From positions 9,669 through 73,668 of the forward strand of contig PFPL01000045.1 of the NCBI GenBank assembly GCA_002793035.1: DNA of 64,000 bases, given 5' to 3'. Numbering within the stretch: position 1 is the stretch's first letter; every line of letters starts with the position of its first letter. Of this stretch, positions 32,591 through 52,777 are shown piece after piece. The notes beneath the pieces are model-generated. The model was not told where the DNA came from. It saw nothing but the letters and a program-made list of their open reading frames with translations, and searched no databases. Source of the stretch: Candidatus Magasanikbacteria bacterium CG_4_10_14_0_2_um_filter_33_14 (GTDB taxonomy: Bacteria > Patescibacteriota > Patescibacteriia > Magasanikbacterales > UBA922). A program made the position numbers and the translations under genes.

Positions 32591-32592
32591 AA

Positions 32593-37922: not shown

Positions 37923-38291
37923 ATGTCAGAAAATGCAAAAGTAAGTTGGGTAATATTTTTTATTTTTACCATTGGCTTTGGGTCTGGAGGTATTTTCGAT
38001 AACTGTGTGGTACACAGCGAAAACTGCTTCACGGCCAAGGAGGCCAAGGCTTGTGACATCTTCACGCTCGATGGTAAGACTGTCTACACCGTCAGCTGGC
38101 CCTACCCGGAGGATAAGGAGCACAAGTACTGCTCCGTGCCTGACATCATGGTCAGGTGCAAGGGACCTTCTGGAGAGCCGGCCTGTTTTGAGAAGGTGAT
38201 GATAAACGACGATGTCTACAACTTTCCGGAGTGGGGCATCTGCCCTGCAACACCGCCAGCTCCGAAGGCTGAGGCGGAGCCTGGAAGCTGA
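37923..38291 (+). CDS. small secreted/membrane-anchored Cys-rich protein with a GC-rich mature domain
   Basis: 122 aa. AT-rich N-terminal hydrophobic segment (VSWVIFFIFTIGFGSGG) followed by a GC-rich region with 8 Cys. Terminated by hairpin repeat copy 2. Confidence 0.5.
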   Translation: MSENAKVSWVIFFIFTIGFGSGGIFDNCVVHSENCFTAKEAKACDIFTLDGKTVYTVSWPYPEDKEHKYCSVPDIMVRCKGPSGEPACFEKVMINDDVYNFPEWGICPATPPAPKAEAEPGS

Positions 38292-40745: not shown

Positions 40746-40760
40746 TTTAAAATTATTATT

Positions 40761-41378
40761 ATGATCAAAAATAAAAAAGCTTTTACTCTAATTGAAATTA
40801 TCGTTGTGATGGCTATTTTTTCTATTTTGGTGGCAGGATCTTCTTGGTTTGTGATTGGTACCAACAAAGATTTGGCGGTAATGTGGGAGCAACTAATCAC
40901 TCAAAATGAAGGTAAAAAAACTATTGATCATGTTGTCAATTATGTACGTCGTGCTGAGACATCTAGTGTTGGAGCTTATGCTTTGGATACTACAGAAGAG
41001 TACAATTTGGTTTTTTATGCCAATGTAGATGATGATTCTATGATAGAAAAGGTGAAATTTTGGTTGGATACAGATAATATCTTAAAAGAAACTATAACCA
41101 AGCCAAGTAGTACAGCTTCTTCCAATTTATATGAAAATGGATCATCATATACAGTAAATTTAGCTGAAAATGTGAAAAATATGATTGTTGGTAATCCTGT
41201 CTTTTTGTATTATGACGAAAATTATACGGGGATAGGTAGTCCTCTTAGTGGTAATTTCAATTTTACTGATGTACGTGTAGTACAGGTTCAGTTAGAATTA
41301 GAAAAAGATCCTACAAAAACACCAGTACCTTTGCATGTAGAGAGTAAAGCTTTTATTAGGAGTACGAAAACAAATTAA
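40761..41378 (+). CDS. type IV pilin / pseudopilin-like protein
   Basis: N-terminal KKAFTLIEIIVVMAIFSILVAG. Confidence 0.65.
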   Translation: MIKNKKAFTLIEIIVVMAIFSILVAGSSWFVIGTNKDLAVMWEQLITQNEGKKTIDHVVNYVRRAETSSVGAYALDTTEEYNLVFYANVDDDSMIEKVKFWLDTDNILKETITKPSSTASSNLYENGSSYTVNLAENVKNMIVGNPVFLYYDENYTGIGSPLSGNFNFTDVRVVQVQLELEKDPTKTPVPLHVESKAFIRSTKTN

Positions 41379-41417
41379 TTATTTCAATGTAGAATAAATA
41401 TACACGAATAACTTTGT

Positions 41418-42746
41418 ATGAAAGATTTTTTTAAGAAGTTAAAACTAAATAAAAAAGGATCGGCTTTTCTTTTTGTCATGGTTTTTGGTTTTATTGGTTT
41501 TATGACTATTACTATTGGGATGACTTCTTATGCTATTTTCGAGTCCAAGGCTTCGAAACAGACTTATCGAAAAGATCTAGCCTTTCATATTGCGGAAGCT
41601 GGAATAGATTATTATCGTTGGCATCTAATGAGTTCTCCAGAAGATTATTATGATGGACAGGGTAGTGGTGCTATTGGTCCTTATGTTCATGATTATTATG
41701 ATAAAGATGGTAATGTTGTTGGTACTTTTTCTATTGAAATAGATGTGCCTCCACAGGGTACTTATGTTGTGGCTGTTCGTTCGACTGGTTGGTCACTTGA
41801 AAATCCTAATAGTAAACGCACTATAGAAGCTTATTTTGGTTATGAATCTTTTAGTGATTCTTCTTTTGTTGTTAATGCTGATATGCGCTTTAGTTCTACT
41901 AGTTTTGTTCATGGTAAGACATTTGCTAATGGTTGTATAGAGTTTGATGGTACTAGTGATTCTTGGGTAGATAGTGCTAAAGGAGCCAATCAGTGTTCTT
42001 ATGGCAATGATGGCGTTTATGGTACAGGTGGACCAACAGAATTTTGGCGTTATGGTTTGCCGGTAAGAAGTTTTGCTGGTATTGGTGATAATTTTGATAT
42101 GTTAAAAGATATGGCCAATTCACCAGAAGGAATCAATTTAGGATCATCAAGTCGTTGGCATATTGTCTTTTTAGACAATGGTACTTTCAATTTGTATCGT
42201 GTAAATAATTATTCTTCAACTAAATATGATATAACTTCAGAAACTTTTCAAAGTAATCAGAGTTTACCTGAAAATGGTGTTATTTATAGTACTCGTAGTA
42301 TTTGGGTAGAAGGTGTTGTCAAAGGTAGAGTCAGTGTTGTAGCTGATAATGGGGCGGCAATTTTAATCCCGGGTAATCTCTTATATAGTGAAAAACATGC
42401 TGATGATATTTTGGGTTTATTGTCTGACACAAATATCATAATTCCGTATGATGTCCCTAATGATATGGAAATTGATGGAGCTTTATTGGCTAAATCGGGA
42501 AGTATTTCTAGGCCATATTTTTCTTATAGTTATGGAAGCAAATACATTAGAGATTCTTTGAGTGTTTTTGGTTCACAAATACAATATTCTAGCGGTGGTT
42601 TAAAATGGGTTAATAGTTATGGTACAATAATATCTGGATTTATTGATACTATTTATACCTATGATGGAAATTTACTTTATAAACCACCCGTTGGTATTCC
42701 TGTTATTCCGGAATATAAGCTTATTAGTTGGCATGAACTTAATTAG
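41418..42746 (+). CDS. PilX-like pilus-associated protein
   Basis: N-terminal KKGSAFLFVMVFGFIGFMTITIGMTSYAI resembles the PilX N-terminal domain. Confidence 0.45.
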   Translation: MKDFFKKLKLNKKGSAFLFVMVFGFIGFMTITIGMTSYAIFESKASKQTYRKDLAFHIAEAGIDYYRWHLMSSPEDYYDGQGSGAIGPYVHDYYDKDGNVVGTFSIEIDVPPQGTYVVAVRSTGWSLENPNSKRTIEAYFGYESFSDSSFVVNADMRFSSTSFVHGKTFANGCIEFDGTSDSWVDSAKGANQCSYGNDGVYGTGGPTEFWRYGLPVRSFAGIGDNFDMLKDMANSPEGINLGSSSRWHIVFLDNGTFNLYRVNNYSSTKYDITSETFQSNQSLPENGVIYSTRSIWVEGVVKGRVSVVADNGAAILIPGNLLYSEKHADDILGLLSDTNIIIPYDVPNDMEIDGALLAKSGSISRPYFSYSYGSKYIRDSLSVFGSQIQYSSGGLKWVNSYGTIISGFIDTIYTYDGNLLYKPPVGIPVIPEYKLISWHELN

Positions 42747-42826
42747 TTAACAATTTTAAAATTTTTGTTGGTAAAAAAATCAATACTTTGTTATAATATA
42801 GCAAAGTAATTTTATTAAAATATTTT

Positions 42827-43693
42827 ATGCAAAAAGTTCGTAAAGGAGTAATAACTGTGGCTGGGTTTGGGACTAGGTTTTTACCTGCTACCAAAGCCAT
42901 GCCAAAAGAAATGTTGCCTGTTTTAGATAAACCAGTTTTGCAATATATAGTAGAAGAAATGGTGGCTAGTGGAATTACCGAAATTATTTTGGTAACAAGT
43001 TCACAAAAGCGTGCTATCGAGGACCATTTTGATAGAGACAAAGATTTTGAAAATTTTTTAGAGAGTAAAGGAAAGCTAGAAAAAATTAGTTCATTAATTG
43101 ATTTATCAAAAAAAGTAAGATTTTTTTATACTAGACAAGCAGAACCTTTGGGTAATGGTCATGCTTTGTTATGTGCTCGTGAATTTATAGGTGACGAGCC
43201 TTTTGTATTTTCTGATGGGGATAGTATTATCGATTCAAATGTACCTGTAGTCAAACAACTTTTGAAAGTTTTCAAAAAACAAAATGCTTCGGTAATTGGG
43301 GTGCAAAAAATAACAGACACAGAAGCTATGACTAAGTATGGCAATGTCTATGGTAAAGCTATCAAAGAAAAAAAGACATATAGAGTAACAGAATTCATAG
43401 AGAAACCAAGTATAGAAAAAGTATCCAAAGATGGTTTGATTGTGGGTGGAATGCGTTATGTTTTTACCAAAGATATTTGGGCGATGCTTGAGTCACAAAA
43501 GAAGGGAAGAGATGGTGAAATTTGGTTGTCAGATGCTGCCAATGCTTTGGCTCAAAAGAAAAAATTTATGGCTTATGAATATGAAGGTGTTTATTTTGAT
43601 ACGGGAGACAAATTAGCCTTACTCAAGGCCTCCATACATTTCGCCAAAAAAGATCCGGATATTAAAGATAAAATAGACGAATTATTAGTTTAG
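42827..43693 (+). CDS. galU: UTP--glucose-1-phosphate uridylyltransferase
   Basis: GVITVAGFGTRFLPATKAMPKEMLPV... Confidence 0.85.
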   Translation: MQKVRKGVITVAGFGTRFLPATKAMPKEMLPVLDKPVLQYIVEEMVASGITEIILVTSSQKRAIEDHFDRDKDFENFLESKGKLEKISSLIDLSKKVRFFYTRQAEPLGNGHALLCAREFIGDEPFVFSDGDSIIDSNVPVVKQLLKVFKKQNASVIGVQKITDTEAMTKYGNVYGKAIKEKKTYRVTEFIEKPSIEKVSKDGLIVGGMRYVFTKDIWAMLESQKKGRDGEIWLSDAANALAQKKKFMAYEYEGVYFDTGDKLALLKASIHFAKKDPDIKDKIDELLV

Positions 43694-43708: not shown

Positions 43709-44440
43709 ATGAAGTTTGGAATTTATAAAATATTTGGAATATTGGTGTTTGTTTTTGTTATATCTTTTTTTAAGATTGATTTGGTTTTTTCTGAAAGTAA
43801 ATATTGTAAGTGTACTTCAGACAAAGGTGTTTGCGAAGAAGGGGCAAAGTTAAAAAGTGATTGTGATAAGATGGTACAAGATTCAAATGGTCAATTTACT
43901 CAATGTGTAATGACAACTACTGATAAAAATTGTTCTGCTCTTGCTACGTCTAGAAAATTCTGTGCTTGTGCTGCTGACAAAAGCGATTGTGGTCCTACTA
44001 TTTATGCTGACTTACCAGAATGTGATAGGAACAAAGGTGCTGTCAATGCTAGTTACCAATGTATTCAAGTTGAAAATGGAAAAGGCTGTAGTTCACTTGT
44101 GGATGCTACCCAAAATGGTGATCAATCTGGTAGTAGTCAAGGAGGTTCAGCTTCTAGCTTTCTAGGTGATTTGGACCCACAAATAAAAGGATTAAATAAA
44201 TTACAAGGTGTAGATAATTTACAACAACTGATTGGTCGTGCCATTTCTGCTCTCTTGGGTATTTTGGGTTCTATAGCTTTGGTTATGATGCTTTTTGGTG
44301 GATTTACTTGGATGACTTCTGCTGGTAATGTTGAAAAAAGGAAAAAAGCTACAGGTATTATAATTTGGTCTGTGTTGGGCGTGTCTATCATTTTTGCTAG
44401 TTACGCTATGGTTAATTTTGTTTTGGATATCTTTAAATAA
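43709..44440 (+). CDS. VirB2/TrbC-like (T4SS-pilin-like) two-TM protein with N-terminal Cys-rich ectodomain
   Basis: Signal peptide, about 10 Cys, then LFGGFTWMTSAGNVEKRKKATGII + second TM (family core). Confidence 0.5.
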   Translation: MKFGIYKIFGILVFVFVISFFKIDLVFSESKYCKCTSDKGVCEEGAKLKSDCDKMVQDSNGQFTQCVMTTTDKNCSALATSRKFCACAADKSDCGPTIYADLPECDRNKGAVNASYQCIQVENGKGCSSLVDATQNGDQSGSSQGGSASSFLGDLDPQIKGLNKLQGVDNLQQLIGRAISALLGILGSIALVMMLFGGFTWMTSAGNVEKRKKATGIIIWSVLGVSIIFASYAMVNFVLDIFK

Positions 44441-44445
44441 ATATT

Positions 44446-45825
44446 ATGTTTAAAAAAATTTCAGTGCTCTCTCTTCTTTCTATATTTTTGTTGACAGCTG
44501 GGTTTGGTTGTAAGAGTGTTTCACAAACTGAGCAAGCATCTATTAAGGCGGTTAAGCTTACTTATTGGACTGTGTATAATGATGTGGATGAGTTACGTGT
44601 TTTGGCACAACAATATACACAGCGTTATCCACATGTGTCTATCAATATAAAACAAGTAAAATATGAGGAATTTGATAGTTTGTTTACCAATGCTTTGGCT
44701 GATGATGTTGGTCCAGATATTGTTTCTCAGCACGTGAGGTGGCTTCGTAAAAATCAATCTAGATTATTACCAGCACCTGGAGTAACAAAGATGCATCGTA
44801 TTGTAATTGCCAATAATTTTTCAAAAGAACAACAATTTTTGACAGATTCCAATGCTTTGCCTTCTGCTAGTTATATAAAAAATAATTATGTTCAAACTGT
44901 TTATAATGATGTTGTGCTCGACAAACAAATTTATGGTTTGCCTTTGTCTATGGATACTCTTTCTATTTTTTATAATCAGGATTTACTTGATAGAGCAGGT
45001 ATTGCCGAAGCCCCAAAAAATTGGAATGCTTTTGCTGAAGATGTCCAAAAACTTACTAAGTTCAATAGTATTGGAGATATCATCCAATCTGGTGCAGCTC
45101 TTGGTACTGCCAATAATATCAATGCCGCTACAGATATCATTGCTATGTTTATTATGCAAAGTGGACTAAAAGTAGCTAGTGGTAATACAGTTACTTTTGC
45201 GGCAGGTATAGACAAAGCTCAAGATAGAAATGTATCTATTTTGAGTGCTCTTGATTTTTATACTGATTTTGCTAGACCTACCAAAGAAGTTTATAGTTGG
45301 AATGAAAAGAAAGGTGATGCCTTAGATGAATTTGTTCGTGGTAGAGTAGGTTTTTATTTTGGTTATTCTTATGATTTTGCAACTATAAAACAAAGATCTC
45401 CTCAAATGAATTTACGTATTATGCCAATGCTACAGCTTGATCCAGAAAATCCAAGCAATGTAGCTAATTATTGGGTGGAGTCAGTCGTCCAAAAAACAAA
45501 ATATCCAAATGAAGCTTGGGATTTTGTAAGGTTTATTACTTCTCCAGAAAATGTAGCCAAGTATACAGAAAAGATTTTTAGTCCAAGTCCAATTCGTGCA
45601 CAAATCACACTTCAACAGGAAGATGAAAATCTTGGACCTTTTGCTACGCAAGCTTTATTTGCTGAAAATTGGTACAAAGGTAAAGATGTGGATGCTGTCG
45701 CTACTTCTTTTGATTCTATGATTACAGAACTTTTGAAACCATCTGATGATGAAAATGATTTATTGAAAAAAGATAAGCAAATCATTATTAATACCGCTGC
45801 CAGAATTCAGCAGACAATGCAATAA
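44446..45825 (+). CDS. orphan extracellular solute-binding lipoprotein (SBP family 1-like)
   Basis: Lipobox LTAGFGC; MalE-like sugar SBP blocks; no adjacent permease or ATPase. Confidence 0.65.
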   Translation: MFKKISVLSLLSIFLLTAGFGCKSVSQTEQASIKAVKLTYWTVYNDVDELRVLAQQYTQRYPHVSINIKQVKYEEFDSLFTNALADDVGPDIVSQHVRWLRKNQSRLLPAPGVTKMHRIVIANNFSKEQQFLTDSNALPSASYIKNNYVQTVYNDVVLDKQIYGLPLSMDTLSIFYNQDLLDRAGIAEAPKNWNAFAEDVQKLTKFNSIGDIIQSGAALGTANNINAATDIIAMFIMQSGLKVASGNTVTFAAGIDKAQDRNVSILSALDFYTDFARPTKEVYSWNEKKGDALDEFVRGRVGFYFGYSYDFATIKQRSPQMNLRIMPMLQLDPENPSNVANYWVESVVQKTKYPNEAWDFVRFITSPENVAKYTEKIFSPSPIRAQITLQQEDENLGPFATQALFAENWYKGKDVDAVATSFDSMITELLKPSDDENDLLKKDKQIIINTAARIQQTMQ

Positions 45826-45828
45826 TAT

Positions 45829-47112
45829 ATGAAAAATTTTTATAAAATTTTATTTTTTACAGTAATATTGTTTGCTTCATTATTTTCTTTGCAGAGTACT
45901 GTTTTAGCAGCTGGTCCTGTAGATGATTTTTTTTCTTCCGTAGACAAAGGTTTGAATTATCAGTGTTGCCTGTTGAAAAGGTCAAATGATCAGACTGTAG
46001 CTTGTGTAAAAAATCATACAGTAGGGGGTGGTTCAAGAATAGGTTGTTATGAAAATTATTCTGATCCTGAAACTGTAAATGCTAGGATTCAAGAAATGTA
46101 TTATAGTGGTGATACTTTGTATGATTTTAGGACTCAAAATATAACAAAGTTAGAGAATGTCGACTGTAATGCTATTGCTGCTTGTGTAGAGTTTTCAGAT
46201 CAAGAAAAAATGTTTTCAGGTACAATAAGTAAAAGTGATTTTGATTTAATTAATATAGCTACTTTCAATGTCAAAGTATCAAAAATGTTGCCTGTTACTG
46301 ATTATAATTTTAGTAAATTAGAATGTATCAATTGTAATATCACGCCAGGATTAAAAGCTACTAGTGGTAGTTTTTCTATATCAAATAGTAATTTGAGTGT
46401 ACATGAACTAACTATGAATTTTGAGTTGACGCCTTACGAGTATATAAAGGGGAGTCAAGACAAAAAGTTGCCAGCTACTGTTAATTTAGAATTTAAGGCT
46501 AGTGGAAAAACATCTGAGGGTAAAGATCTTACAACTTTTTTAAAATTTCCTTTGATTATAAAAGGAGCCAACTGTAAAGATTTTGATAATGATGAAGCAA
46601 AATGTTCTACCAATAGTGGCTGTCTGTTTGTTTCTGCAACCAAAAAATGTGGAGAAGTCGCCGATGCTTCTCTATGTAGTGTCTTGAACAAAAATGAGTG
46701 TGCCGTTTCTATAGCTTGTACACAGGATGCTAACGAAAAGTGTGTAAGCAATGTTTCCAAAGCTGTAGATGAATATATTGCCAAGGATCATCAAATGCCT
46801 AAAGGTTATTCAGGGCCTTTACCTGAGTGTGCTTTTGATGGCTCTTGTCGTGATGTAAACAAGTTGGTAGAGCTAGCGCTAAAAGTAGTTGATTATTTGT
46901 TTTCTATTGTAGCTGGTTTAGCTTTCGTTTTCTTTATTTATGGAGGATTTACTTGGATATTTTCTTTTGGAAATCCCGAAAAAGTAAAAAAAGGTCAACA
47001 GATTTTTGTCTATGCTGTGATTGGTCTTATCATTGTATTTAGTGCTTATATATTGGTTAGTTTCTTGCTCAATGTTTTGGGTGTGAATGATGCATATATA
47101 ATTATAAATTAA
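45829..47112 (+). CDS. VirB2/TrbC-like two-TM protein with large N-terminal Cys-rich ectodomain
   Basis: Signal peptide, approx 330-aa Cys-rich region, then IYGGFTWIFSFGNPEKVKKGQQI + TM. Confidence 0.5.
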   Translation: MKNFYKILFFTVILFASLFSLQSTVLAAGPVDDFFSSVDKGLNYQCCLLKRSNDQTVACVKNHTVGGGSRIGCYENYSDPETVNARIQEMYYSGDTLYDFRTQNITKLENVDCNAIAACVEFSDQEKMFSGTISKSDFDLINIATFNVKVSKMLPVTDYNFSKLECINCNITPGLKATSGSFSISNSNLSVHELTMNFELTPYEYIKGSQDKKLPATVNLEFKASGKTSEGKDLTTFLKFPLIIKGANCKDFDNDEAKCSTNSGCLFVSATKKCGEVADASLCSVLNKNECAVSIACTQDANEKCVSNVSKAVDEYIAKDHQMPKGYSGPLPECAFDGSCRDVNKLVELALKVVDYLFSIVAGLAFVFFIYGGFTWIFSFGNPEKVKKGQQIFVYAVIGLIIVFSAYILVSFLLNVLGVNDAYIIIN

Positions 47113-47119
47113 AAAAATT

Positions 47120-47482
47120 ATGAAAATATCTTTTAAGAGTTCATTTTTTCTTATAATGTCTGTGGCTTTATCATTTTTTGTTTATAATTTGGTACAGGCT
47201 GTGAATTGTGAGGACAATAGAACTTGTCTAGAAAACCCCATAAAAAGTAATACTATTCCGGAAATTTTTGGTAATGGAATTAAGATATCTACTGGTATTA
47301 TGGGTTCACTTGCGTTGTTAGTTTTTATTTATGGTGGGGCTGTTTGGCTTACTTCTGCAGGCAATCCAGAAAAAGTAAAGAAAGGTACGAGTGCTATGGT
47401 TTGGGCTGTGTTGGGTATGGTTGTTATTTTTAGTAGTTATGCTATAATTAACCTAGTTTTGAATGGGTTGGGAGTAAATTAA
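47120..47482 (+). CDS. VirB2/TrbC-like small two-TM protein (paralog)
   Basis: IYGGAVWLTSAGNPEKVKKGTSA. Confidence 0.55.
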   Translation: MKISFKSSFFLIMSVALSFFVYNLVQAVNCEDNRTCLENPIKSNTIPEIFGNGIKISTGIMGSLALLVFIYGGAVWLTSAGNPEKVKKGTSAMVWAVLGMVVIFSSYAIINLVLNGLGVN

Positions 47483-47633
47483 AACATTGATTGCACGGAT
47501 TTAATAAGATTACACTGATATTTACTTAGTAAGAATATAATTACGATAAATAAGTTATAAAATACTTACAATATTTTTTAAAAAAATATAATTATGTTAA
47601 AAAAAACTTTTGCATTGAAGGGAGGTGATACAC

Positions 47634-48083
47634 ATGAATTTGTTATATAAGCTTGCTAAATACAAAACAGTTCTTTCAATTATTTTTGTATTAGCTTTAG
47701 GACTTGTGCTATCACCAAATTTGGCTATGGGTCAAGGTTATGATCCAAATGATCCATTCGGCGTTGACGTCGTTGAACAAGGTGATGGTTCAGAGGGAGG
47801 CGGACTTGCTCTAGGTACTTCAGATTTGAGAGCTACTATCGTTAGAGTAATCAATATCGCTTTGAGTTTACTTGGTATCGTAGCTGTTGTCGTCGTACTT
47901 ATCGGTGGTTTCCAATGGATGACTGCTGGTGGTGATGACGGTAAAGTAGAAACAGCTCGTAAATGGATTTTCTCAGGTATTATTGGTCTTGCTATTATTC
48001 TTAGTGCTTGGGCTATCGCTAGATTTGCTCTTGTCAATCTTGGTAACGCTACCAACACTCCTGGTGCTGAAAATTATCAATAA
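47634..48083 (+). CDS. VirB2/TrbC-like small two-TM protein (paralog)
   Basis: GGGAGGTG RBS then ATG; LIGGFQWMTAGGDDGKVETARKWI. Confidence 0.55.
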   Translation: MNLLYKLAKYKTVLSIIFVLALGLVLSPNLAMGQGYDPNDPFGVDVVEQGDGSEGGGLALGTSDLRATIVRVINIALSLLGIVAVVVVLIGGFQWMTAGGDDGKVETARKWIFSGIIGLAIILSAWAIARFALVNLGNATNTPGAENYQ

Positions 48084-48205
48084 ATTTAAATTTCAGAGCA
48101 GATATTTGCAAAAATATTCTGCTCTGAATATTTATTTTGAGAGGATAAAAAATTATTTTTCACAAAAATTTTTGGAAAATCATCTTTTATTCTTTATAAA
48201 ACATT

Positions 48206-48634
48206 ATGATAAACAAAAAGTTAATTAATTTAGTTTTTGTTTTTTTATTTGCTTTCGCTGTCTTGGTACCAGCTAGTGCACCAACTTTGGCAGCGCCTAG
48301 TTCTACTTGTGATCAAGAAGGGGATTTATTGGGTCTTGGTTGTGTAGGAAGTAATACAGGTCTTAGTGACAAAGATCCTCGTATTATTATTGTCCAAATT
48401 ATAAATGTTATACTTGGTTTATTGGGAATCGTAGTTACTGTGCTTATTGTCTATGCTGGATTTTTGTGGATGACAGCCGGTGGTGAAGAGTCAAAAGTAG
48501 AAAAGGCAAGAAAGATTATTGTTGCAGCCATTATTGGACTTGCTATTATCTTGTCAGCTTTTGCTATTACTAGGTTTGTTTCTTTTGGTCTTTATCAAGC
48601 AACAATGGGTAGTGAATATCCTGTTGCTAAATAA
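48206..48634 (+). CDS. VirB2/TrbC-like small two-TM protein (paralog)
   Basis: VYAGFLWMTAGGEESKVEKARKII. Confidence 0.55.
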   Translation: MINKKLINLVFVFLFAFAVLVPASAPTLAAPSSTCDQEGDLLGLGCVGSNTGLSDKDPRIIIVQIINVILGLLGIVVTVLIVYAGFLWMTAGGEESKVEKARKIIVAAIIGLAIILSAFAITRFVSFGLYQATMGSEYPVAK

Positions 48635-48644
48635 TTTTGTATTT

Positions 48645-49310
48645 ATGAATAATAAAAAATTTTTTTTAACATTTGGATTCCTTACTGGTTTTTTTCTTCT
48701 GGTTATGATGTTTGCTCCAGGTTTTGCTTTTGCTGACAATTATGGTCTAGATGCAACTGCTGGAGCCGCAGGTTTGCCTAGTGGTGTAGATTTGCCAACT
48801 GTTTTGGGTAATGTGATTGGTACAGCACTTTCTATGATTTCTGTATTATTTTTTGGTCTCATGCTTTATGGTGGAATTATGTGGATGACAGCCAGGGGAA
48901 AGAGTGAAAACACTCAAAAAGCACTTGATACTATTATCGCAGCTATCATTGGTGTGGTGATTGTCTTGGCTGCTTATGCTATTACCAATTTTGTTTTTAG
49001 TAACGTTCAATCTGGAGCGGGTGGTGCAGGTGGCGGAACTGGAGGAACTGGAGGCAATAATACTCCACCTGTTTCTCAGTCATGTGTTATTGGTAATACA
49101 GAGGTTTCTAGTTTTTGTTCTACAGCATGTAATGTTGTTCAGGATGCTTGTACAGGAAATGATTACTGTCAAGATTTTTGTAAACCTAATGATACAGGTC
49201 TTCTTTGTATTCCTATGGCTTCTCAATCCTCTTTGTGTTCTGTATATTCTAATGTTATTGCAAATTGTACAGCTGTAGAGTCTGACACAGAATTGTGTAA
49301 AGTACAATAA
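48645..49310 (+). CDS. VirB2/TrbC-like two-TM protein with Gly-rich linker and C-terminal Cys-rich domain
   Basis: LYGGIMWMTARGKSENTQKALDTI; SGAGGAGGGTGGTGGNN linker; 12 Cys in the last approx 85 aa. Confidence 0.5.
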   Translation: MNNKKFFLTFGFLTGFFLLVMMFAPGFAFADNYGLDATAGAAGLPSGVDLPTVLGNVIGTALSMISVLFFGLMLYGGIMWMTARGKSENTQKALDTIIAAIIGVVIVLAAYAITNFVFSNVQSGAGGAGGGTGGTGGNNTPPVSQSCVIGNTEVSSFCSTACNVVQDACTGNDYCQDFCKPNDTGLLCIPMASQSSLCSVYSNVIANCTAVESDTELCKVQ

Positions 49311-49314
49311 ATTT

Positions 49315-49686
49315 ATGCGTAAATTTTTGGTAACAATTTTATTTGTAGGAATTAGTCTATTTTCTGTTTCCAATGTTTATGCAAAAAAAACTTTGAATGA
49401 TGCTGATAGTGCACTAGATACTGTATCTCAAAAAACAGGAATTGATCAAAAAGATTTTTCAGCTGTTACAGGAAATGTAGTGAACATGATTTTTATTTTT
49501 GTAGGGTTGATATTTTTTGCTTTGATGGTCTATGCTGGTCTCCGTTGGATGACAGCTCGTGATCAAGCCGACAAAGTAGAAAAGGCTAGAAATACGATGA
49601 TAGCCGCTGTGATAGGTCTTATAATCGTCGTAGCCGCTTATGCTATTACCAATTTCTTACAAACCAAAATTATAAATGGTGGTTAA
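49315..49686 (+). CDS. VirB2/TrbC-like small two-TM protein (paralog)
   Basis: VYAGLRWMTARDQADKVEKARNTM. Confidence 0.55.
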   Translation: MRKFLVTILFVGISLFSVSNVYAKKTLNDADSALDTVSQKTGIDQKDFSAVTGNVVNMIFIFVGLIFFALMVYAGLRWMTARDQADKVEKARNTMIAAVIGLIIVVAAYAITNFLQTKIINGG

Positions 49687-49695
49687 AATTTTCAT

Positions 49696-50067
49696 ATGAA
49701 AAAAATAAAAAATATTTTTGCAAATTTGTTTATAGCTTTTATATTGGCTTCATCTTTTACTTTGCCGGTATTTGCTCAAGGTATCAAAAATGCTGGTGAT
49801 AATCTAGATCCTATCGCTCAAAAAGCGGGGATTACTGAAGGTGATGTCGGAAATATTACGGGTACTGTTATCTCTGCTATTTTGAGTCTGGTTGGTATTA
49901 TTTTTCTAATTCTCATGGTTTACGCTGGTATTATTTGGATGACAGCCAGAGGTGATGATAGTAAGACTGAAAATGCTAAGAAAACGATTACAGCCTCAAT
50001 AATAGGTCTTTTTATAGTAGTAAGTGCTTATGCTATTACTCAATTTGTAACTAGTAGATTTAACTAA
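49696..50067 (+). CDS. VirB2/TrbC-like small two-TM protein (paralog)
   Basis: VYAGIIWMTARGDDSKTENAKKTI. Confidence 0.55.
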   Translation: MKKIKNIFANLFIAFILASSFTLPVFAQGIKNAGDNLDPIAQKAGITEGDVGNITGTVISAILSLVGIIFLILMVYAGIIWMTARGDDSKTENAKKTITASIIGLFIVVSAYAITQFVTSRFN

Positions 50068-50072
50068 ATTTT

Positions 50073-50480
50073 ATGAAATATATATTTTTTTCTTTTCTAC
50101 TTATTTTTTCTTTTGTTACTTTTGCGCCACAAGCTTTGGCTTTGGATTTGGGAGGTGACACTCTAAAAAATGCTGCTGACAAAGGTGGTTATGACAAAAA
50201 TACCAATGAAACAACTTTGGCTAGCAATATTGGTATGGTAGTGAATATTATCTTGTCTATTATTGGTGTTTTGTTCACTGTTTTGATGGTTTATGCTGGA
50301 TATACTTGGATGGTAGCTAGAGGTGATGAGACAAAGATAGATAAGGCTAAGAAAATTATTACAGCTTCTATTATTGGACTTATTATTACACTTGGAGCTT
50401 ATAGTATTACCAACTTCATTATTCCAAGAATACTTGATCAGACTCTTGCTCAAGTAAATAGTTGGTTATTATTTGTCTAA
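50073..50480 (+). CDS. VirB2/TrbC-like small two-TM protein (paralog)
   Basis: VYAGYTWMVARGDETKIDKAKKII. Confidence 0.55.
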   Translation: MKYIFFSFLLIFSFVTFAPQALALDLGGDTLKNAADKGGYDKNTNETTLASNIGMVVNIILSIIGVLFTVLMVYAGYTWMVARGDETKIDKAKKIITASIIGLIITLGAYSITNFIIPRILDQTLAQVNSWLLFV

Positions 50481-50482
50481 TT

Positions 50483-50899
50483 ATGAATAAATTCTCAAAA
50501 ATTATTTTAACTTTAATTTTTTCAGTGATAATTTTGTCTCCTTCGCTTTCTTTGGCACAGACAAATACCTCTACCAAAAGTACCAAAGACTCAGCTTTGG
50601 AACAACTTCACGCTGGCGCAAATGGAGCAGGCCTTCAAGAACAATCTAGTGATCCTAGAATTATTGCCTCTCGTATTATAAAAACATTCCTTAGTTTATT
50701 GGGTACGATGTCAATTTTCTTGTTTGTATATGCTGGATATCTACTTATAACATCACATGGTGAATCAGAAAAAGTGACAAAAGCCCGAAAGATTATGACT
50801 GGGGCAGTGATTGGTATGCTTTTGATATTACTTTCATTTAGTATTACGAATTTTGTAGGTAACAAATTGCAAGAGAGTATAAATCAGACTTCTAATTAA
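50483..50899 (+). CDS. VirB2/TrbC-like small two-TM protein (divergent paralog)
   Basis: VYAGYLLITSHGESEKVTKARKIM. Confidence 0.5.
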   Translation: MNKFSKIILTLIFSVIILSPSLSLAQTNTSTKSTKDSALEQLHAGANGAGLQEQSSDPRIIASRIIKTFLSLLGTMSIFLFVYAGYLLITSHGESEKVTKARKIMTGAVIGMLLILLSFSITNFVGNKLQESINQTSN

Positions 50900-50904
50900 T
50901 ATTT

Positions 50905-51372
50905 ATGATTAGAAAAAAAATAATTTTATTTTTGTTGGTAATCCTTGGTGTTTTCTGCTTTACAAATTTTTCTTTAGCGGTAAACTCTACTACTGAGAGT
51001 CTTATTGATTCTATAAATTCTCAGAACCAGGCTTTTGAAAATAGTTCAGAAGTGGGTGCCCCACAAGACATTAGAATAATTATAGCTAAAATTATAAAAA
51101 TATTTTTGGGTTTTGTTGGGTTTTTAGCCACTGCCTATTTGGTATATGGTGGTTATTTGTATATGACTTCTGCTGGTAATGAAACTAGAGCAGAGGATGC
51201 TAGTAAAATTATGCTGTATAGTGCTCTAGGTATCTTTATTATTTTGGCTTCTTATAGTATAACCAATTTTGTATATAAATCATTTCAAGCAAGTTTAGAA
51301 CAGACACAGACGACAGGTAGCCAAAATTCTGGTGGAACAAATTTTTCCAATGAAAATTCTTTTAGACCGTAA
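50905..51372 (+). CDS. VirB2/TrbC-like small two-TM protein (divergent paralog)
   Basis: VYGGYLYMTSAGNETRAEDASKIM. Confidence 0.5.
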   Translation: MIRKKIILFLLVILGVFCFTNFSLAVNSTTESLIDSINSQNQAFENSSEVGAPQDIRIIIAKIIKIFLGFVGFLATAYLVYGGYLYMTSAGNETRAEDASKIMLYSALGIFIILASYSITNFVYKSFQASLEQTQTTGSQNSGGTNFSNENSFRP

Positions 51373-51416
51373 CTTGAAAAGAAATTAATTTTTTAGTCTG
51401 ATGAAAAGTCAGACTT

Positions 51417-52223
51417 TTGTTTATAAGTGAAGATATGACCGAAAAAATACAAGGACCTTTATTTTCTATAGTAATCCCAGCCTACAATGAAGAGAAAACA
51501 ATAAGCTCTTGTCTTGATTGTGCCAAAAAAGTCAAAATAGATTTTGACTATGAAATCATTGTTGTGGACAATAACTCAAAAGATAAAACTTCTCAAATTG
51601 CTAAAGATGCAGGAGTAAAAGTATTTTTAGAAACCAAACAGGGTGTGGGAGCCGCTAGAAAAAAAGGTACACAAGAGGCTACTGGTTTTTTTATATTACA
51701 CATAGACGCTGACACTCATTTACCAGAAAATTATTTGGAAGAGGTTTTGAAGAGATTCGAAAAAGATTCGGATTTGGTTTGTGTGGGTGGTCAAATGTTT
51801 TTTTATGATGCTCCTCTTTGGAAAGATATTATGAGAGTTTTTTTGCATCATGCTCTTTGGTTTTTTGCGGTAATTATCTCTCGTAAATCACAAGGTCCTA
51901 TGGGTAACAATATGACTTTTCGTAAAGATGTTTATGATCTGACTAGTGGTTTTGATGAAACTTTGCATTTTGGTGAGGATATGGATATCAGCAAAAAAAT
52001 GTCAGACTTTGGGAAAGTAAAACTCGACATGTCTCTTAAGTGCCCAGTGTCTTCTCGTCGTTATAAGATAAATAAAAGTTTGTTTGATTATTCTATGAAT
52101 TTTTTCAAGATGAGTACCAAAGGGGAATTACACAAAAATGAACTTCCTCCTGCCAATGAAGTGGTCAAAAAACATTTTCCAAAATTGAAAGATATTATAC
52201 ACAAAAATAAAAAAAGGGACTAA
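51417..52223 (+). CDS. family 2 glycosyltransferase
   Basis: FSIVIPAYNEEKTISSCLD...IIVVDNNSKD, DAD motif (HIDADT). Confidence 0.75.
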   Translation: MFISEDMTEKIQGPLFSIVIPAYNEEKTISSCLDCAKKVKIDFDYEIIVVDNNSKDKTSQIAKDAGVKVFLETKQGVGAARKKGTQEATGFFILHIDADTHLPENYLEEVLKRFEKDSDLVCVGGQMFFYDAPLWKDIMRVFLHHALWFFAVIISRKSQGPMGNNMTFRKDVYDLTSGFDETLHFGEDMDISKKMSDFGKVKLDMSLKCPVSSRRYKINKSLFDYSMNFFKMSTKGELHKNELPPANEVVKKHFPKLKDIIHKNKKRD

Positions 52224-52231
52224 GTCCCTTT

Positions 52232-52777
52232 TTATTTTTCCCAAGTAACTTCTGCTATACTTTCTTTTTTATTTAGATATCGTGCCAAAGTAAATAAGTA
52301 ATCACTTAGCCTATTTAAATATTTTGGAATATTTGTTTCTAGTTCGTAGTGTTGATCTAGCTTGATAATCACTCGTTCAGCACGACGACATACCGCTCTG
52401 GCCTGAAAAGCAAGAGAAGCTGTAACAGAACCACCTGGTAATATAAACTGTGTGAGTTCTGGTAGTTCTATCGACATTTCATCAATATTATTTTCTAAAA
52501 ATTCTAAATCATTATCTTTTATTTTTGGTATTTTTACTAAATCTGTTTGTACTGCTGCTAAGTTTGAACCAAGATTAAATAGTTTGTTTTGTATTTTTTG
52601 TAAAGATTTTTTTTCGATGTCAAATTTTTCATCTAAATAAGAAATAAGTGTACCTAAAAAACTATTGAGTTCGTCGACTTCTCCAATAGCTTCCATTTCT
52701 ACACAATTTTTGAAAACTCGTTTACCACCAAGCAGAGAAGTCTCTCCTTGGTCTCCAGTTTTGGTATAGATTTTCAT
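52232..52777 (-). CDS. PduO-type ATP:cob(I)alamin adenosyltransferase
   Basis: MKIYTKTGDQGETSLLGGKRV...; conserved C-terminal helices. Confidence 0.8.
   Translation of the reverse strand: MKIYTKTGDQGETSLLGGKRVFKNCVEMEAIGEVDELNSFLGTLISYLDEKFDIEKKSLQKIQNKLFNLGSNLAAVQTDLVKIPKIKDNDLEFLENNIDEMSIELPELTQFILPGGSVTASLAFQARAVCRRAERVIIKLDQHYELETNIPKYLNRLSDYLFTLARYLNKKESIAEVTWEK

What the first reader, a model, noticed from the sequence alone, without database searches (positions are those of the whole stretch)
43709..51372. Tandem array of about 11 divergent VirB2/TrbC-like (T4SS-pilin-like) two-TM paralogs
Eleven consecutive same-strand genes encode proteins of the same architecture. Each has a signal peptide and a short variable segment, then TM1 ending in (V/I)YAG or YGG, a conserved loop (F/Y)xWMTAxGxxxKxxKA(R/K)K, and TM2 (IIGLxIIxSAYAITNF). 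This is the architecture of conjugative T4SS pilins (VirB2/TrbC), not of type IV prepilins. No VirB4 or VirD4 is in the window. The paralogs are highly diverged outside the core, which suggests diversifying selection or host-range variation. An orphan SBP lipoprotein is embedded in the array and galU and a GT2 flank it, hinting at a glycosylated surface filament or adhesin system. If this is a Patescibacteria-type genome, the dedicated cell-surface appendage is so far undescribed. A window-length paralog array of this size is unusual.
Basis: partly seen in the sequence, partly recalled or inferred. Interest (0 to 1): 0.8.

Follow-up and report, generated by a model that had tools for sequence, protein, structure and literature searches.

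The report
Eleven-gene T4SS-type pilin operon, Magasanikbacteria
This is a real, tightly packed operon of eleven distantly related "conjugative-pilus-type" membrane proteins in an ultrasmall groundwater bacterium (Candidatus Magasanikbacteria). Such arrays are already described in this phylum, but here the comparison shows an ancient fixed set with one probable high-expression main subunit, seven small partners and three carriers of swappable surface domains, not a rapidly diversifying gene family.

Summary
Eleven same-strand genes (43709-51372) share a signal peptide, a variable segment and a two-helix hairpin. All match Pfam PF18895 (T4SS_pilin), 10 of 11 above threshold. An SBP gene is embedded, and no VirB4, VirD4 or VirB6 lies in the window.

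The kind is already known. VirB2-like arrays of 2-11 genes in Patescibacteria were catalogued in 2025, and one such array is essential in Southlakia.

Comparison with 80 related loci adds four points:
- **Ancient set:** the 11 paralogs are positional orthologs across Magasanikbacteria (order A-SBP-B...K; median tau 0.95). Most are under strong purifying selection (dN/dS 0.02-0.11).
- **One special gene:** D (47634-48083) alone has a strong Shine-Dalgarno, expression-type codon bias and a conserved downstream stem-loop. It is the candidate major subunit.
- **Local diversification:** change is confined to the Cys-rich ectodomains of A, B and F, including whole-module replacement.
- **Fixed SBP:** the SBP directly precedes B in 52/52 loci.

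GT2 linkage is weak. VirB4 exists elsewhere in related genomes according to the literature, but I did not verify it for this genome.

Verdict: a new member of a known kind, with informative internal organisation.

The parts
38922..42746 (+). Context: three type IV pilus minor-pilin-like genes (r 38922-40745, q 40761-41378, p 41418-42746) directly upstream of galU
   Evidence: N_methyl motif in r and q. The order r-q-p-galU-array recurs in related loci. p is present in 13/16 loci with at least 4 kb upstream.
42827..43693 (+). GalU-like UTP-glucose-1-phosphate uridylyltransferase, 15 nt upstream of pilin A. A promoter-like site lies at 42768-42797.
   Evidence: PF00483, E 3e-31. Promoter-like match 10/12 with a TG extension. 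Upstream of the array in 31/43 loci. dN/dS 0.09.
43709..44440 (+). Pilin A (243 aa): signal peptide, two tandem 6-Cys modules (12 Cys), then the pilin hairpin. A modular ectodomain carrier.
   Evidence: PF18895 39.2 bits. The sister lineage L100 carries an extra 93-aa Cys-rich module right after the signal peptide; the rest has dN/dS 0.17. Ortholog length ranges 201-563 aa.
44446..45825 (+). Embedded solute-binding protein (459 aa, CUT1-like, probable lipoprotein with Cys22). Its stop lies 3 nt before the start of B.
   Evidence: SBP_bac_1/SBP_bac_8, E 1e-21. Directly upstream of the B-type pilin in 52/52 assessable loci. Homologs are 48-78% identical and about 457 aa. dN/dS 0.07.
45829..47112 (+). 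Pilin B (427 aa, 18 Cys): variable distal region, Ig-like beta-sandwich, conserved Cys-stapled membrane-proximal module, then the pilin hairpin.
   Evidence: PF18895 50.4 bits. AF2 model pLDDT 72: beta-sandwich about 129-245, helices 343-378 and 383-416. Foldseek matches Ig/MG-like adhesin-type sandwiches at E 1e-4 to 1e-3. Ectodomain dN/dS 0.44 against core 0.04. Conserved Cys columns.
47120..47482 (+). Pilin C (120 aa), short here. Orthologs reach 414 aa.
   Evidence: PF18895 38.3 bits. dN/dS 0.05. Lengths.
47565..47633 (+). Promoter-like site (CTTACA-16-TATAAT, 47565-47592) and strong Shine-Dalgarno GGGAGGTGA ahead of D
   Evidence: SD duplex -12.9 kcal/mol, the strongest of 54 window genes.
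47634..48083 (+). Pilin D (149 aa): candidate major subunit, its own expression unit
   Evidence: PF18895 42.9 bits. Strongest SD in 19/19 canonical loci and 62/67 of all loci. Strongest downstream hairpin in 58/67. Highest C-ending codon ratio among the pilins in 17/19 loci (pooled 0.447 against 0.20-0.28). The mature protein is nearly invariant against the sister lineage.
48094..48138 (+). Stem-loop (CAGAGCAGATATTT...AATATTCTGCTCTG) plus a T-rich tail just after D's stop. Terminator, attenuator or mRNA stabiliser.
   Evidence: (I13). A hairpin at this position is present in 19/19 loci with different stem sequences. Median -19.7 against -3.5 to -5.8 kcal/mol elsewhere, p=1.8e-12. The consensus terminator scan does not call it because the T-run is imperfect.
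48206..48634 (+). Pilin E (142 aa)
   Evidence: PF18895 35.0 bits. dN/dS 0.03.
48645..49310 (+). Pilin F (221 aa): pilin hairpin, Gly-rich linker, then a C-terminal Cys-rich domain (10 Cys)
   Evidence: PF18895 34.2 bits. The anchor (aa 1-134) is about 99% identical to the sister lineage. The C-terminal domain is replaced by unrelated sequence right after GAGGAGGGTGG; only 403/666 nt align.
49315..51372 (+). Pilins G (49315-49686), H (49696-50067), I (50073-50480), J (50483-50899) and K (50905-51372): short members separated by 2-9 nt
   Evidence: PF18895 scores 40.4, 44.7, 35.0, 26.4 and 29.4 bits. dN/dS 0.11, 0.03, 0.02, 0.08 and 0.06. H also passes NCBIfam NF045849 (44.5 against cutoff 40). 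AF2 model of H: helices 51-83 and 88-120, core pLDDT above 90.
51395..51415 (+). Terminator-like hairpin between K and the GT2 gene (probable operon end)
   Evidence: The hairpin after position K has a median of -11.7 kcal/mol across 19 loci.
51417..52223 (+). GT2 glycosyltransferase: a neighbour, probably a separate transcription unit
   Evidence: PF00535, E 8e-29. Directly downstream in only 17/71 loci. A bidirectional terminator lies at 52211-52233.

Best explanation
The region is a chromosomal, origin-proximal operon of a Candidatus Magasanikbacteria (Patescibacteria, class ABY1) genome. It encodes a fixed, ancient set of eleven non-redundant T4SS-type pilin-like proteins (Pfam PF18895) plus one solute-binding protein.

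**Proposed working**
- All eleven are Sec-exported and signal-peptidase-I processed. They insert as helical hairpins with both ends outside and the basic loop in the cytoplasm.
- D is made in large excess. It has its own promoter-like site, one of only three strong Shine-Dalgarno sequences in the window, expression-type codons and a 3' stem-loop. D is the bulk (major) subunit of a VirB2-like, probably lipid-containing, envelope-spanning or extracellular polymer.
- The other ten are low-abundance minor subunits.
- Three of them (A, B, F) present Cys-rich or Ig-like ectodomains on the outside. These are exchanged between lineages and most plausibly mediate host-cell recognition or adhesion.
- The SBP, translationally coupled to B, acts at the same surface.
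- Assembly would be driven by the VirB4-TrsD-VirB3 machinery that related genomes encode elsewhere.

**Shown**
- Family membership.
- Positional orthology.
- Purifying selection on most members against ectodomain turnover in A, B and F.
- The unique expression signals of D.
- The invariant SBP-B pairing.

**Inferred**
- High expression of D.
- Polymer formation.
- Outside display of the ectodomains.
- Dependence on VirB4.
- An adhesive role for the ectodomains.
For: **Family**
- PF18895 is significant for all 11.
- NCBIfam NF045849, a pilin-like conjugal transfer protein, passes its cutoff for H.
- The AF2 model of H is a helical hairpin with core pLDDT above 90.
- W-M-x-x-R aligns in register with VirB2 W87-R91. 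In the T-pilus, that Arg binds phospholipid in the lumen and the termini face outward (bioRxiv 10.1101/2022.09.25.509369).

**Ancient fixed set**
- Kendall tau between gene order and best window paralog has a median of 0.95 in 78 loci (null about 0).
- 197/198 best between-genome hits fall at the same position.
- Ortholog bit scores exceed the best paralog score for 95% of proteins.

**Co-expression, not switching**
- Intergenic gaps are 2-10 nt, except around D.
- There are no long repeats and no inversion-type inverted repeats.
- Ten same-species contigs are 99.5-100% identical.

**D is special**
- SD of -12.9 kcal/mol, strongest in 19/19 canonical loci and 62/67 of all loci.
- Downstream hairpin strongest in 58/67 loci.
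- Codon bias top in 17/19 loci.
- Only 3/54 window genes have an SD at all.

**Selection**
- dN/dS is 0.02-0.11 for C, E, G, H, I, J and K.
- B ectodomain 0.44 against core 0.04.
- The C-terminal domain of F is replaced. A gains or loses a 93-aa module.
- The B ectodomain is an Ig-like sandwich as in adhesin stalks.

**Neighbours and lineage**
- SBP-B adjacency in 52/52 loci.
- The lineage has VirB4-TrsD-VirB3 elsewhere (PMC12102498 Tables S1 and S3).
- A homologous array is essential in Southlakia.
Against: - No pilus built from PF18895 proteins has been observed in any organism.
- PF04956 (TrbC/VirB2) never reaches its gathering score. The best is 23.7 against 27.9.
- hhalign against VirB2 is not significant (E 0.015, probability 3%) and gives nothing against F-pilin TraA.
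- Foldseek of the H model against the PDB finds no pilin (best E about 2).
- No T4SS machinery gene is linked to the array. VirB4 was not verified for this genome.
- Expression of D is inferred from sequence signals only.
- D's loop has net charge 0, less basic than typical VirB2 loops.
Confidence: 0.55

Rival explanations
1. The hairpins are membrane anchors or subunits of a membrane-embedded complex, not a filament. On this reading the two-helix hairpin anchors small surface proteins and displayed domains (A, B, F) in the cytoplasmic membrane of a monoderm cell. Alternatively it forms part of the T4SS channel, as VirB2 is also thought to do within the machine. The SBP would act as a co-receptor, and no extracellular pilus would be made.
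For: - Monoderm (MPF-FATA) T4SSs generally lack pili.
- No pilus of this family has ever been seen.
- The array is unlinked to VirB4 here.
- The co-encoded SBP is a membrane-surface protein.
- Fold and profile comparisons to solved pilins are not significant.
Against: - One member carries strong high-expression signals while ten do not. That is the pattern of a polymer with a bulk subunit rather than a stoichiometric complex.
- The proteins belong to the pilin-named families PF18895 and NF045849.
- In other classes the arrays lie inside T4SS loci and are essential.
Confidence: 0.25
2. The genes form an antigenic or host-range variation array. On this reading the paralogs are alternative major pilins, expressed one at a time or selected for diversity. 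This is what has been proposed for the VirB2 paralogs of Bartonella and Anaplasma, and what PMC12102498 and the first reader suggested for Patescibacteria.
For: - Identity between paralogs is low (mean 29%).
- The literature proposes this explanation.
- The ectodomains of A, B and F do turn over between lineages.
Against: - Each paralog has a same-position ortholog across the order.
- dN/dS is 0.02-0.11 for seven members. There are zero nonsynonymous changes in the N-terminal segments of G, J and K.
- Operon spacing is tight.
- There are no recombination or inversion repeats.
- The population is clonal across metagenomes.
- Only D carries expression signals.
Confidence: 0.07
3. The array is an accessory module of the neighbouring type IV pilus. 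On this reading its products work with the T4P minor pilins encoded just upstream, not with a T4SS.
For: - The order r-q-p (T4P minor pilins), galU, array is conserved (13/16 loci).
- The T4P machinery PilB/C/M/N/O lies in the same window.
- No T4SS gene is nearby.
Against: - None of the eleven has a class III (N_methyl) signal or the G/FTLIE processing site.
- Their family is T4SS-associated in other classes.
- Synteny within one order can simply be inherited, and it was not tested outside the order.
Confidence: 0.05

Closest known systems
VirB2-like pilin arrays of Patescibacteria (Quinonero-Coronel et al. 2025, PMC12102498; the 6-gene essential array of Ca. Southlakia epibionticum, Wang et al. 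2023, PMC10633639; the 'Sec-secreted array' of TM7x)
   Same: - Same Pfam family (PF18895).
- Same phylum.
- Tandem arrangement, sometimes interrupted by a non-pilin gene.
- Very low identity between paralogs. The publication reports mean 25% and max 54%; here it is 29% and 43%.
- Eleven genes is the top of the published range.
   Different: - Here the array is not next to virB4. In Saccharimonadia and Microgenomatia it usually is.
- Table S3 of that paper lists only 1-3 VirB2 hits for Magasanikbacteria genomes, found with the T_virB2 profile and flagged not near VirB4. The 9-14-gene Magasanikbacteria arrays were therefore largely not captured.
- I found no published report of the positional orthology, the single SD-led gene with a hairpin, the modular ectodomains or the invariant SBP.
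NCBIfam NF045849, Mbov_0395 family pilin-like conjugal transfer protein (Mycoplasma ICEs)
   Same: - An 80-residue two-helix profile aligns end to end with the cores.
- H passes the curated cutoff (44.5 against 40). A, K, D and F give significant sub-cutoff hits.
- Both belong to the wall-less or monoderm MPF-FATA world, to which Patescibacteria VirB4 is related.
   Different: - That family sits on mobile ICEs as a single gene.
- Here there are eleven chromosomal paralogs in a conserved housekeeping neighbourhood, with no integrase or relaxase in the window.
- I found no functional literature on the family.
VirB2/TrbC conjugative pilins (Pfam PF04956; T-pilus, F-pilus) with the VirB5 minor pilin
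   Same: - Signal peptide, two hydrophobic helices and a short charged loop.
- The W-M-x-x-R register matches VirB2 W87-R91.
- The topology puts both termini outside, as in the T-pilus.
- The proposed major/minor division parallels VirB2/VirB5.
   Different: - PF04956 stays below its gathering score.
- No significant profile or fold match to solved pilins.
- The loop is longer.
- There are eleven paralogs instead of one.
- Three members have large grafted ectodomains.
- The cell envelope is monoderm.
- No linked VirB machinery.
VirB2 paralog arrays of Bartonella and Anaplasma (antigenic variation; cited in PMC12102498)
   Same: Tandem, sequence-divergent VirB2-type genes.
   Different: Here the paralogs are conserved one-to-one across an order and are under purifying selection. 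Nothing indicates alternative expression.
Modular type IV pilins (for example Streptococcus sanguinis PilB, PMC8179133). An analogy only.
   Same: A conserved pilin anchor carries a grafted functional or adhesive module, present as a low-abundance subunit.
   Different: The pilin superfamily and assembly machinery are unrelated. I took the analogy from that paper's abstract and did not test it.

Membership tests
Pfam PF18895 T4SS_pilin | Whole-protein HMM score at or above the gathering score (26.6 bits) | tested here: met
   Ten of 11 score 29.4-50.4 bits. J scores 26.4 bits (E 7e-6), 0.2 bits short. Precomputed PF18895 hits appear on all 11 gene calls in public contigs.
Pfam PF18895 T4SS_pilin | Architecture: N-terminal signal, two hydrophobic helices, short charged connecting loop | tested here: met
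   Hydropathy, alignment, and the AF2 hairpin 51-83/88-120 with pLDDT above 90.
VirB2/TrbC pilins (Pfam PF04956) | HMM score at or above the gathering score (27.9 bits) | tested here: not met
   The best is B at 23.7 bits. Nine of 11 have in-register hits at E 6e-5 to 0.03, all below threshold.
VirB2/TrbC pilins (Pfam PF04956) | Significant sequence-profile or fold similarity to solved conjugative pilins (VirB2, TraA) | tested here: inconclusive
   - hhalign against VirB2: E 0.015, probability 3%, but W-M-x-x-R is in register.
- hhalign against TraA: nothing.
- Foldseek against the PDB: best E about 2.
- PDB sequence search: only spurious repeat proteins.
VirB2 numbering agrees with the T-pilus paper.
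VirB2/TrbC pilins (Pfam PF04956) | Encoded with the T4SS machinery (VirB4, VirB3, VirB6 and others) | tested here: not met
   None in the 64-kb window. None lies within 10 kb upstream of dnaA, and contigs that extend about 3 kb beyond the window's downstream end show none either. Related genomes encode VirB4-TrsD-VirB3 elsewhere.
VirB2/TrbC pilins (Pfam PF04956) | Polymerises with phospholipid into an extracellular pilus | not testable with these tools
   Needs cryo-EM or cryo-ET, or surface shearing plus mass spectrometry. No such observation exists for any PF18895 protein.
Patescibacteria VirB2-like pilin array (as defined in PMC12102498) | At least 2 PF18895/PF04956 genes in tandem or separated by one non-pilin gene, in a Patescibacteria genome | tested here: met
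   Eleven genes with one intervening SBP gene. Closest proteins are Candidatus Magasanikbacteria.
Patescibacteria VirB2-like pilin array (as defined in PMC12102498) | The genome also encodes VirB4 | not tested
   Only lineage-level literature evidence is available. Table S1 gives VirB4 = Yes for most Magasanikbacteria listed, including the genomes of L009, L022, L061 and L072. The sister MAG GCA_001784405.1 is not in that table.
NCBIfam NF045849 (Mbov_0395 pilin-like conjugal transfer protein) | Score at or above the curated cutoff (40 bits) | tested here: inconclusive
   H scores 44.5, which passes. A 38.6, K 32.6, D 27.2, F 24.7 and B 15.6 fall below. Five paralogs were not scanned.
NCBIfam NF045849 (Mbov_0395 pilin-like conjugal transfer protein) | Carried on an integrative conjugative element | tested here: not met
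   The neighbourhood is conserved chromosomal sequence (dnaN, T4P, galU, EF-P, RNR) across the order, with no integrase or relaxase domains in the window.
Antigenic-variation pilin arrays (Bartonella/Anaplasma type) | Lineage-specific expansion, rapid turnover or gene conversion among paralogs | tested here: not met
   One-to-one positional orthologs. dN/dS 0.02-0.11 for seven members. No long DNA repeats. The population is clonal.
Type IV (T4P) pilins | Class III signal peptide / N_methyl motif processed by the prepilin peptidase | tested here: not met
   None of the 11 array proteins hits PF07963. The upstream genes r and q do.

The most novel reading that the evidence does not exclude
Magasanikbacteria, and perhaps Patescibacteria in general, build a heteropolymeric VirB2-type organelle in a monoderm envelope. 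It would have:
- one dedicated major subunit (the D type);
- seven conserved minor subunits;
- three modular pilins whose Cys-rich or Ig-like ectodomains are swapped between lineages to match host surfaces;
- an obligatory solute-binding partner.

This would be a host-contact or uptake device, genetically uncoupled from its VirB4 motor.
Probability: 0.3. Interest if true: 0.8.

Novelty: new member of a known kind. Interest (0 to 1): 0.5.

Why it matters
The function of the Patescibacteria T4SS and its pilin arrays is an open question. The arrays are essential in the one species tested, yet their role is "completely unknown" (PMC11665869) and no pilus has ever been seen.

Three results change how that question can be approached:
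- **Fixed set:** in Magasanikbacteria the array is an anciently fixed set, which argues against the published "variation for host range" idea for most members.
- **Bulk subunit:** D can be named as the likely bulk subunit. That gives a concrete target for antibodies, metaproteomics, cryo-ET and filament modelling.
- **Recognition candidates:** the ectodomains of A, B and F, together with the SBP, can be named as the probable host-recognition parts.

The match to a Mycoplasma ICE pilin-like family also suggests the pilin may have arrived with the MPF-FATA machinery, instead of being co-opted from diderm systems.

Tried and rejected
- **Genome-collection scan with the 11-paralog core alignment.** It failed because no stretch was conserved enough. 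I repeated it with the H-ortholog alignment.
- **Fold search of the H model against the PDB.** It returned only generic helical hairpins.
- **PDB sequence search with the core profile.** It returned only designed "Pizza" beta-propellers, through summed weak repeats, which is spurious.
- **hhalign against VirB2 and TraA.** Not significant. Membership of PF04956 is therefore not claimed.
- **Looking for VirB4 by walking out of the window.** Ten kb upstream of dnaA holds only rnpA, rpmH, yidD, trigger factor and H+-PPase. Downstream, the contigs end about 3 kb past the window.
- **SBP homolog search to test SBP-array linkage outside the order.** The best 120 hits are all Magasanikbacteria-like, so this stays untested.
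- **Rfam scan for RNA genes or elements in the array.** Only tRNAs elsewhere in the window.
- **Repeat scan for shufflon or cassette signatures.** Nothing beyond 60-76% core similarity.
I did not attempt it. At 12-43% amino-acid identity, synonymous sites are saturated. I used ortholog pairs instead.
- **The apparent dN/dS of 1.5 in F's C-terminal domain.** This is not evidence of positive selection. The two sequences are unalignable, so it is a replacement.
- **Holin or bacteriocin-immunity readings.** Rejected: no such family appears at E < 0.1.

Full report
**1. Observation**

The ORF map shows eleven consecutive + strand genes between 43709 and 51372, with one 459-aa gene (44446-45825) between the first and second. 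I label the pilin genes A to K:

| Gene | Coordinates |
|---|---|
| A | 43709-44440 |
| B | 45829-47112 |
| C | 47120-47482 |
| D | 47634-48083 |
| E | 48206-48634 |
| F | 48645-49310 |
| G | 49315-49686 |
| H | 49696-50067 |
| I | 50073-50480 |
| J | 50483-50899 |
| K | 50905-51372 |

The starts of D, F and J were refined from the sequence and from public gene calls. Every protein has an N-terminal hydrophobic signal-like segment and two C-terminal hydrophobic helices. Paralog identity is low: mean 29% full-length (12-43%) and 37% in the 69-column core.

**2. Family**

All eleven match Pfam PF18895, T4SS_pilin (E 2e-13 to 7e-6). Ten exceed the gathering score and J misses it by 0.2 bits. PF04956 (TrbC/VirB2) gives in-register hits for nine of them, but none reaches its threshold (best 23.7 against 27.9 bits). 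NCBIfam adds NF045849, "Mbov_0395 family pilin-like conjugal transfer protein" from Mycoplasma ICEs. H passes the curated cutoff (44.5 against 40), and A, K, D, F and B give weaker hits. None has the N_methyl signal of type IV pilins, whereas two genes just upstream do.

An AlphaFold2 model of H is a helical hairpin (helices 51-83 and 88-120, pLDDT above 90 in the core). This fold is too generic for a fold search: Foldseek against the PDB gives nothing below E about 2. A profile search of PDB sequences returns only spurious repeat proteins. hhalign against A. tumefaciens VirB2 aligns VYAGIIWMTARG with VAIGISWMFGRA in register, but is not significant (E 0.015, probability 3%). F-pilin TraA gives nothing.

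So I claim membership of PF18895. I do not claim membership of the VirB2/TrbC family proper.

**3. Organism and context**

The closest proteins are from Candidatus Magasanikbacteria MAGs from aquifers. H is 98% identical to a protein of a RIFOXYC12_FULL_33 MAG, which places the genome in Patescibacteria class ABY1.

Window contents:
- dnaN at 371-1498, with dnaA just upstream of the window.
- A full type IV pilus machinery, PilB/C/M/N/O, on the minus strand (30438-35555).
- Ribosomal protein S6 and SSB.
- T4P minor-pilin-like genes (38922-42746).
- galU, the array and a GT2.
- Housekeeping genes: EF-P, RuvB and a class II RNR.

No VirB4, VirD4 or VirB6 lies in the window. None lies within 10 kb upstream of dnaA, and contigs that extend about 3 kb beyond the window's downstream end show none either.

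**4. What is already known**

Quinonero-Coronel et al. 2025 (PMC12102498) searched 3,035 Patescibacteria genomes with PF04956 and PF18895. [quoted passage not shown] They suggest this versatility may help adaptation to different host strains.

In Ca. Southlakia epibionticum, a series of predicted pilin genes (six) inside the T4SS locus is essential (PMC10633639; PMC12857230). The role of the T4SS is called "completely unknown" (PMC11665869), and no pilus has been seen.

Their Table S1 lists VirB4 = Yes for most Magasanikbacteria, including the genomes that gave my loci L009, L022, L061 and L072. In Table S3, the VirB4-TrsD-VirB3 genes sit elsewhere. Only one to three VirB2 hits per Magasanikbacteria genome are listed, all flagged as not near VirB4. 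The large Magasanikbacteria arrays were therefore largely not captured there.

**5. Comparative genomics: an ancient, fixed set**

A scan of one genome per species returned 80 related loci, mostly Magasanikbacteria. An HMM built from the window cores finds 9-14 pilin ORFs in each complete locus.

I labelled every ORF by its best window homolog. This gives the recurring order r-q-p (T4P minor pilins), galU, A, SBP, B, C, D, E, F, G, H, I, J, K, then GT2 in the closest relatives.
- Kendall tau between gene order and label has a median of 0.95 in 78 loci. The shuffled median is about 0.
- In 18 loci with the exact order, leaving the window out, 197 of 198 best between-genome hits fall at the same array position. 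Same-position orthologs outscore the best within-genome paralog for 95% of proteins. Those 18 loci were chosen by their labels, so the tau statistic is the unbiased one.

About ten loci show a variant order (SBP, B, A, C, D ...).

The paralogs therefore predate the radiation of the order, and each has been kept. The DNA shows no long near-identical repeats and no inversion-type inverted repeats. Ten contigs of the same species from different metagenomes are 99.5-100% identical over the whole array.

**6. One gene is different: D**

Intergenic gaps are 2-10 nt everywhere except before D (151 nt) and after D (122 nt).

D has:
- A promoter-like site (CTTACA-16-TATAAT, 47565-47592).
- A strong Shine-Dalgarno, GGGAGGTGA.
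- A stem-loop with a T-rich tail immediately after its stop (48094-48138).

How selective are these signals?

| Signal | Position D | Other array positions | Counts |
|---|---|---|---|
| SD:anti-SD duplex (median, 19 loci) | -12.9 kcal/mol | -1.9 to -3.7 | strongest in 19/19 canonical loci (p = 3e-13) and 62/67 of all loci with a D-type gene |
| Best 45-nt hairpin after the stop (median) | -19.7 kcal/mol | -3.5 to -5.8 internal; -11.7 after K | p = 1.8e-12; strongest in 58/67 loci |
| C-ending two-fold codon ratio (pooled, 19 loci) | 0.447 | 0.20-0.28 | highest in 17/19 loci; in the window 14/37 against 72/532, p = 4e-4 |

In this genome almost no gene has an SD, not even S6, S18 or EF-P. Only 3 of 54 window genes do, and D's is the strongest. 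The stems after D differ in sequence between lineages (CAGAGCAGA..., GGGGGATC..., GGGCAGGGG...), so the structure is what is conserved, not the sequence.

Three independent signals thus pick out the same position. I read this as one highly expressed major subunit among ten low-expression partners. The logic is familiar from fimbrial operons (my own knowledge), where a stem-loop after the major subunit gene sets stoichiometry. Expression itself was not measured.

**7. Selection**

The sister lineage L100 (GCA_001784405.1) has dS of about 0.1-0.4 against the window in this locus. Nei-Gojobori dN/dS values:

| Gene | dN/dS |
|---|---|
| C | 0.05 |
| E | 0.03 |
| G | 0.11 |
| H | 0.03 |
| I | 0.02 |
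| J | 0.08 |
| K | 0.06 |
| SBP | 0.07 |
| GalU | 0.09 |
| EF-P | 0.10 |
| A | 0.21 |
| D | 0.22 |
| B | 0.41 |
| F | 0.72 |

Resolved by domain:
- **D:** the changes are concentrated in the signal peptide (9 of 13 nonsynonymous changes fall in its 32 residues). The mature protein has four nonsynonymous changes in 117 residues.
- **G, J, K:** the N-terminal segments have no nonsynonymous change.
- **B:** ectodomain 0.44 against core 0.04.
- **A:** differs by a whole 93-aa Cys-rich module inserted after the signal peptide.
- **F:** about 99% identical through the anchor, then replaced by unrelated sequence right after the Gly-rich linker GAGGAGGGTGG. Only 403 of 666 nt align.

Across the order, lengths vary widely at A (201-563 aa), B (240-501), C (120-414), F (169-395) and G (123-259). 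D, E, H, I, J and K stay much more uniform, mostly between about 120 and 210 aa. Diversification is therefore real, but it is confined to grafted ectodomains.

The AF2 model of B (pLDDT 72, confident from about residue 125) shows a beta-sandwich, small Cys-stapled modules, a linker helix and the pilin hairpin. Foldseek matches Ig/macroglobulin-like sandwiches of the kind used in adhesin stalks, and a conjugative-transposon lipoprotein, at E 1e-4 to 1e-3. This is a generic fold, not a specific function. B-type proteins share eight conserved membrane-proximal cysteines, and the distal part varies.

**8. The neighbours**

- **SBP.** It directly precedes the B-type pilin in 52 of 52 loci where this can be judged, with a 3-nt gap in the window. 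It is 48-78% identical across the order at constant length and is under purifying selection. It is a fixed part of the operon. Its ligand and role are unknown, and no ABC permease is in the window.
- **galU.** Upstream in 31/43 loci.
- **GT2.** Directly downstream in only 17/71 loci and separated from K by a hairpin. The glycosylation idea has no support beyond proximity.
- **T4P minor pilins.** The adjacency is conserved (13/16 loci), but it may simply be inherited synteny.

**9. How it most likely works**

In the T-pilus, VirB2 is U-shaped with both termini on the outside. The inter-helix loop lies in the lumen, where Arg91 of W-M-F-G-R contacts phospholipid headgroups, and basic luminal loops are a conserved trait of VirB2/TraA pilins. 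The window proteins have the same layout. F, G, H and I have W-M-x-A-R in the same register, and loop net charge ranges from -1 to +3.

By analogy, N- or C-terminal additions would be displayed on the outside. I therefore propose a VirB2-like polymer whose bulk is D, with ten minor subunits. A, B and F would carry exchangeable surface modules for host contact. The SBP would work at the same surface. Assembly would depend on a VirB4-TrsD-VirB3 motor encoded elsewhere.

Family membership, orthology, the selection pattern, D's signals and the SBP pairing are shown. Polymerisation, display, the motor and the adhesive role are inferred. Confidence is about 0.55.

**10. Rivals**

- **Membrane anchors or a channel complex without a filament (0.25).** This fits the lack of any observed pilus and the monoderm setting. 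It explains the one-against-ten expression asymmetry less well.
- **Antigenic or host-range variation by alternative pilins (0.07).** Orthology, purifying selection, operon structure and the clonal population all contradict it.
- **A type IV pilus accessory module (0.05).** It rests only on adjacency.

**11. Verdict**

The finding is not new as a kind, since such arrays are published. I file it as a new member of a known kind.

My own contribution is the internal organisation of the array:
- the fixed positional set;
- the candidate major subunit D;
- the modular, swappable ectodomains;
- the obligatory SBP;
- the lack of linkage to VirB4;
- the link to a Mycoplasma ICE pilin-like family.

It makes an open question more testable. 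Interest 0.5.

Noticed in passing
whole window; strongest sites ahead of 47634, 10186 and 37923: Shine-Dalgarno sequences are almost absent in this genome. S6, S18, EF-P, dnaN and others have none. Only 3 of 54 genes have a strong one: pilin D, the 1257-aa LTD/PKD/OB-fold surface protein, and orf37923.
   Followed up: partly
window 10186-13959 (+): A giant secreted protein with five lamin-tail domains, PKD domains and a C-terminal OB-fold (tRNA_anti-codon). It is one of the few SD-led genes and may be an extracellular nucleic-acid-binding surface protein.
   Followed up: no
window 37923-38291 (+): A 122-aa ORF with 51% GC and 61% GC3 in a genome of about 33% GC. It has a signal-like N-terminus and several cysteines. 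No Pfam, NCBIfam or Rfam hit. It sits between S18 and the T4P minor pilin genes.
   Followed up: partly
window 6001-8000: A GC-rich patch (45%) with long overlapping ORFs on both strands (6666-7889 +, 7140-7907 -). No Pfam or Rfam hit. Public gene calls disagree on the strand between contigs L001 and L004.
   Followed up: no
window 21867-22130 and 22250-22519 (-): Two paralogous small Cys-rich (CxxC-rich, zinc-ribbon-like) ORFs in a GC-richer stretch that has few other convincing genes (20.3-22.8 kb).
   Followed up: no
window 23896-26274 (+): Glucose-6-phosphate dehydrogenase and 6-phosphogluconate dehydrogenase are fused in one 792-aa ORF.
   Followed up: no
window 30438-35555 (-) and 38922-42746 (+): A complete type IV pilus assembly set (PilB, PilC, PilM, PilN, PilO) and three minor-pilin-like genes lie next to the array. 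No obvious T4P major pilin was identified in the window.
   Followed up: partly
L044, L052, L054, L059, L061, L062, L067, L073, L077, L079: A variant array form in about ten genomes. The order is SBP-B-A-C-D..., with only 9-10 pilin genes, and the last pilin is separated from the rest by a gap of about 1.4 kb.
   Followed up: no
L027, L029, L034, L035 and many other loci (record titles): Many loci that clearly carry the Magasanikbacteria-type array are deposited under the titles 'uncultured Gammaproteobacteria bacterium' or 'Candidatus Udaeobacter sp.'. These are probably mislabelled MAG records.
   Followed up: no
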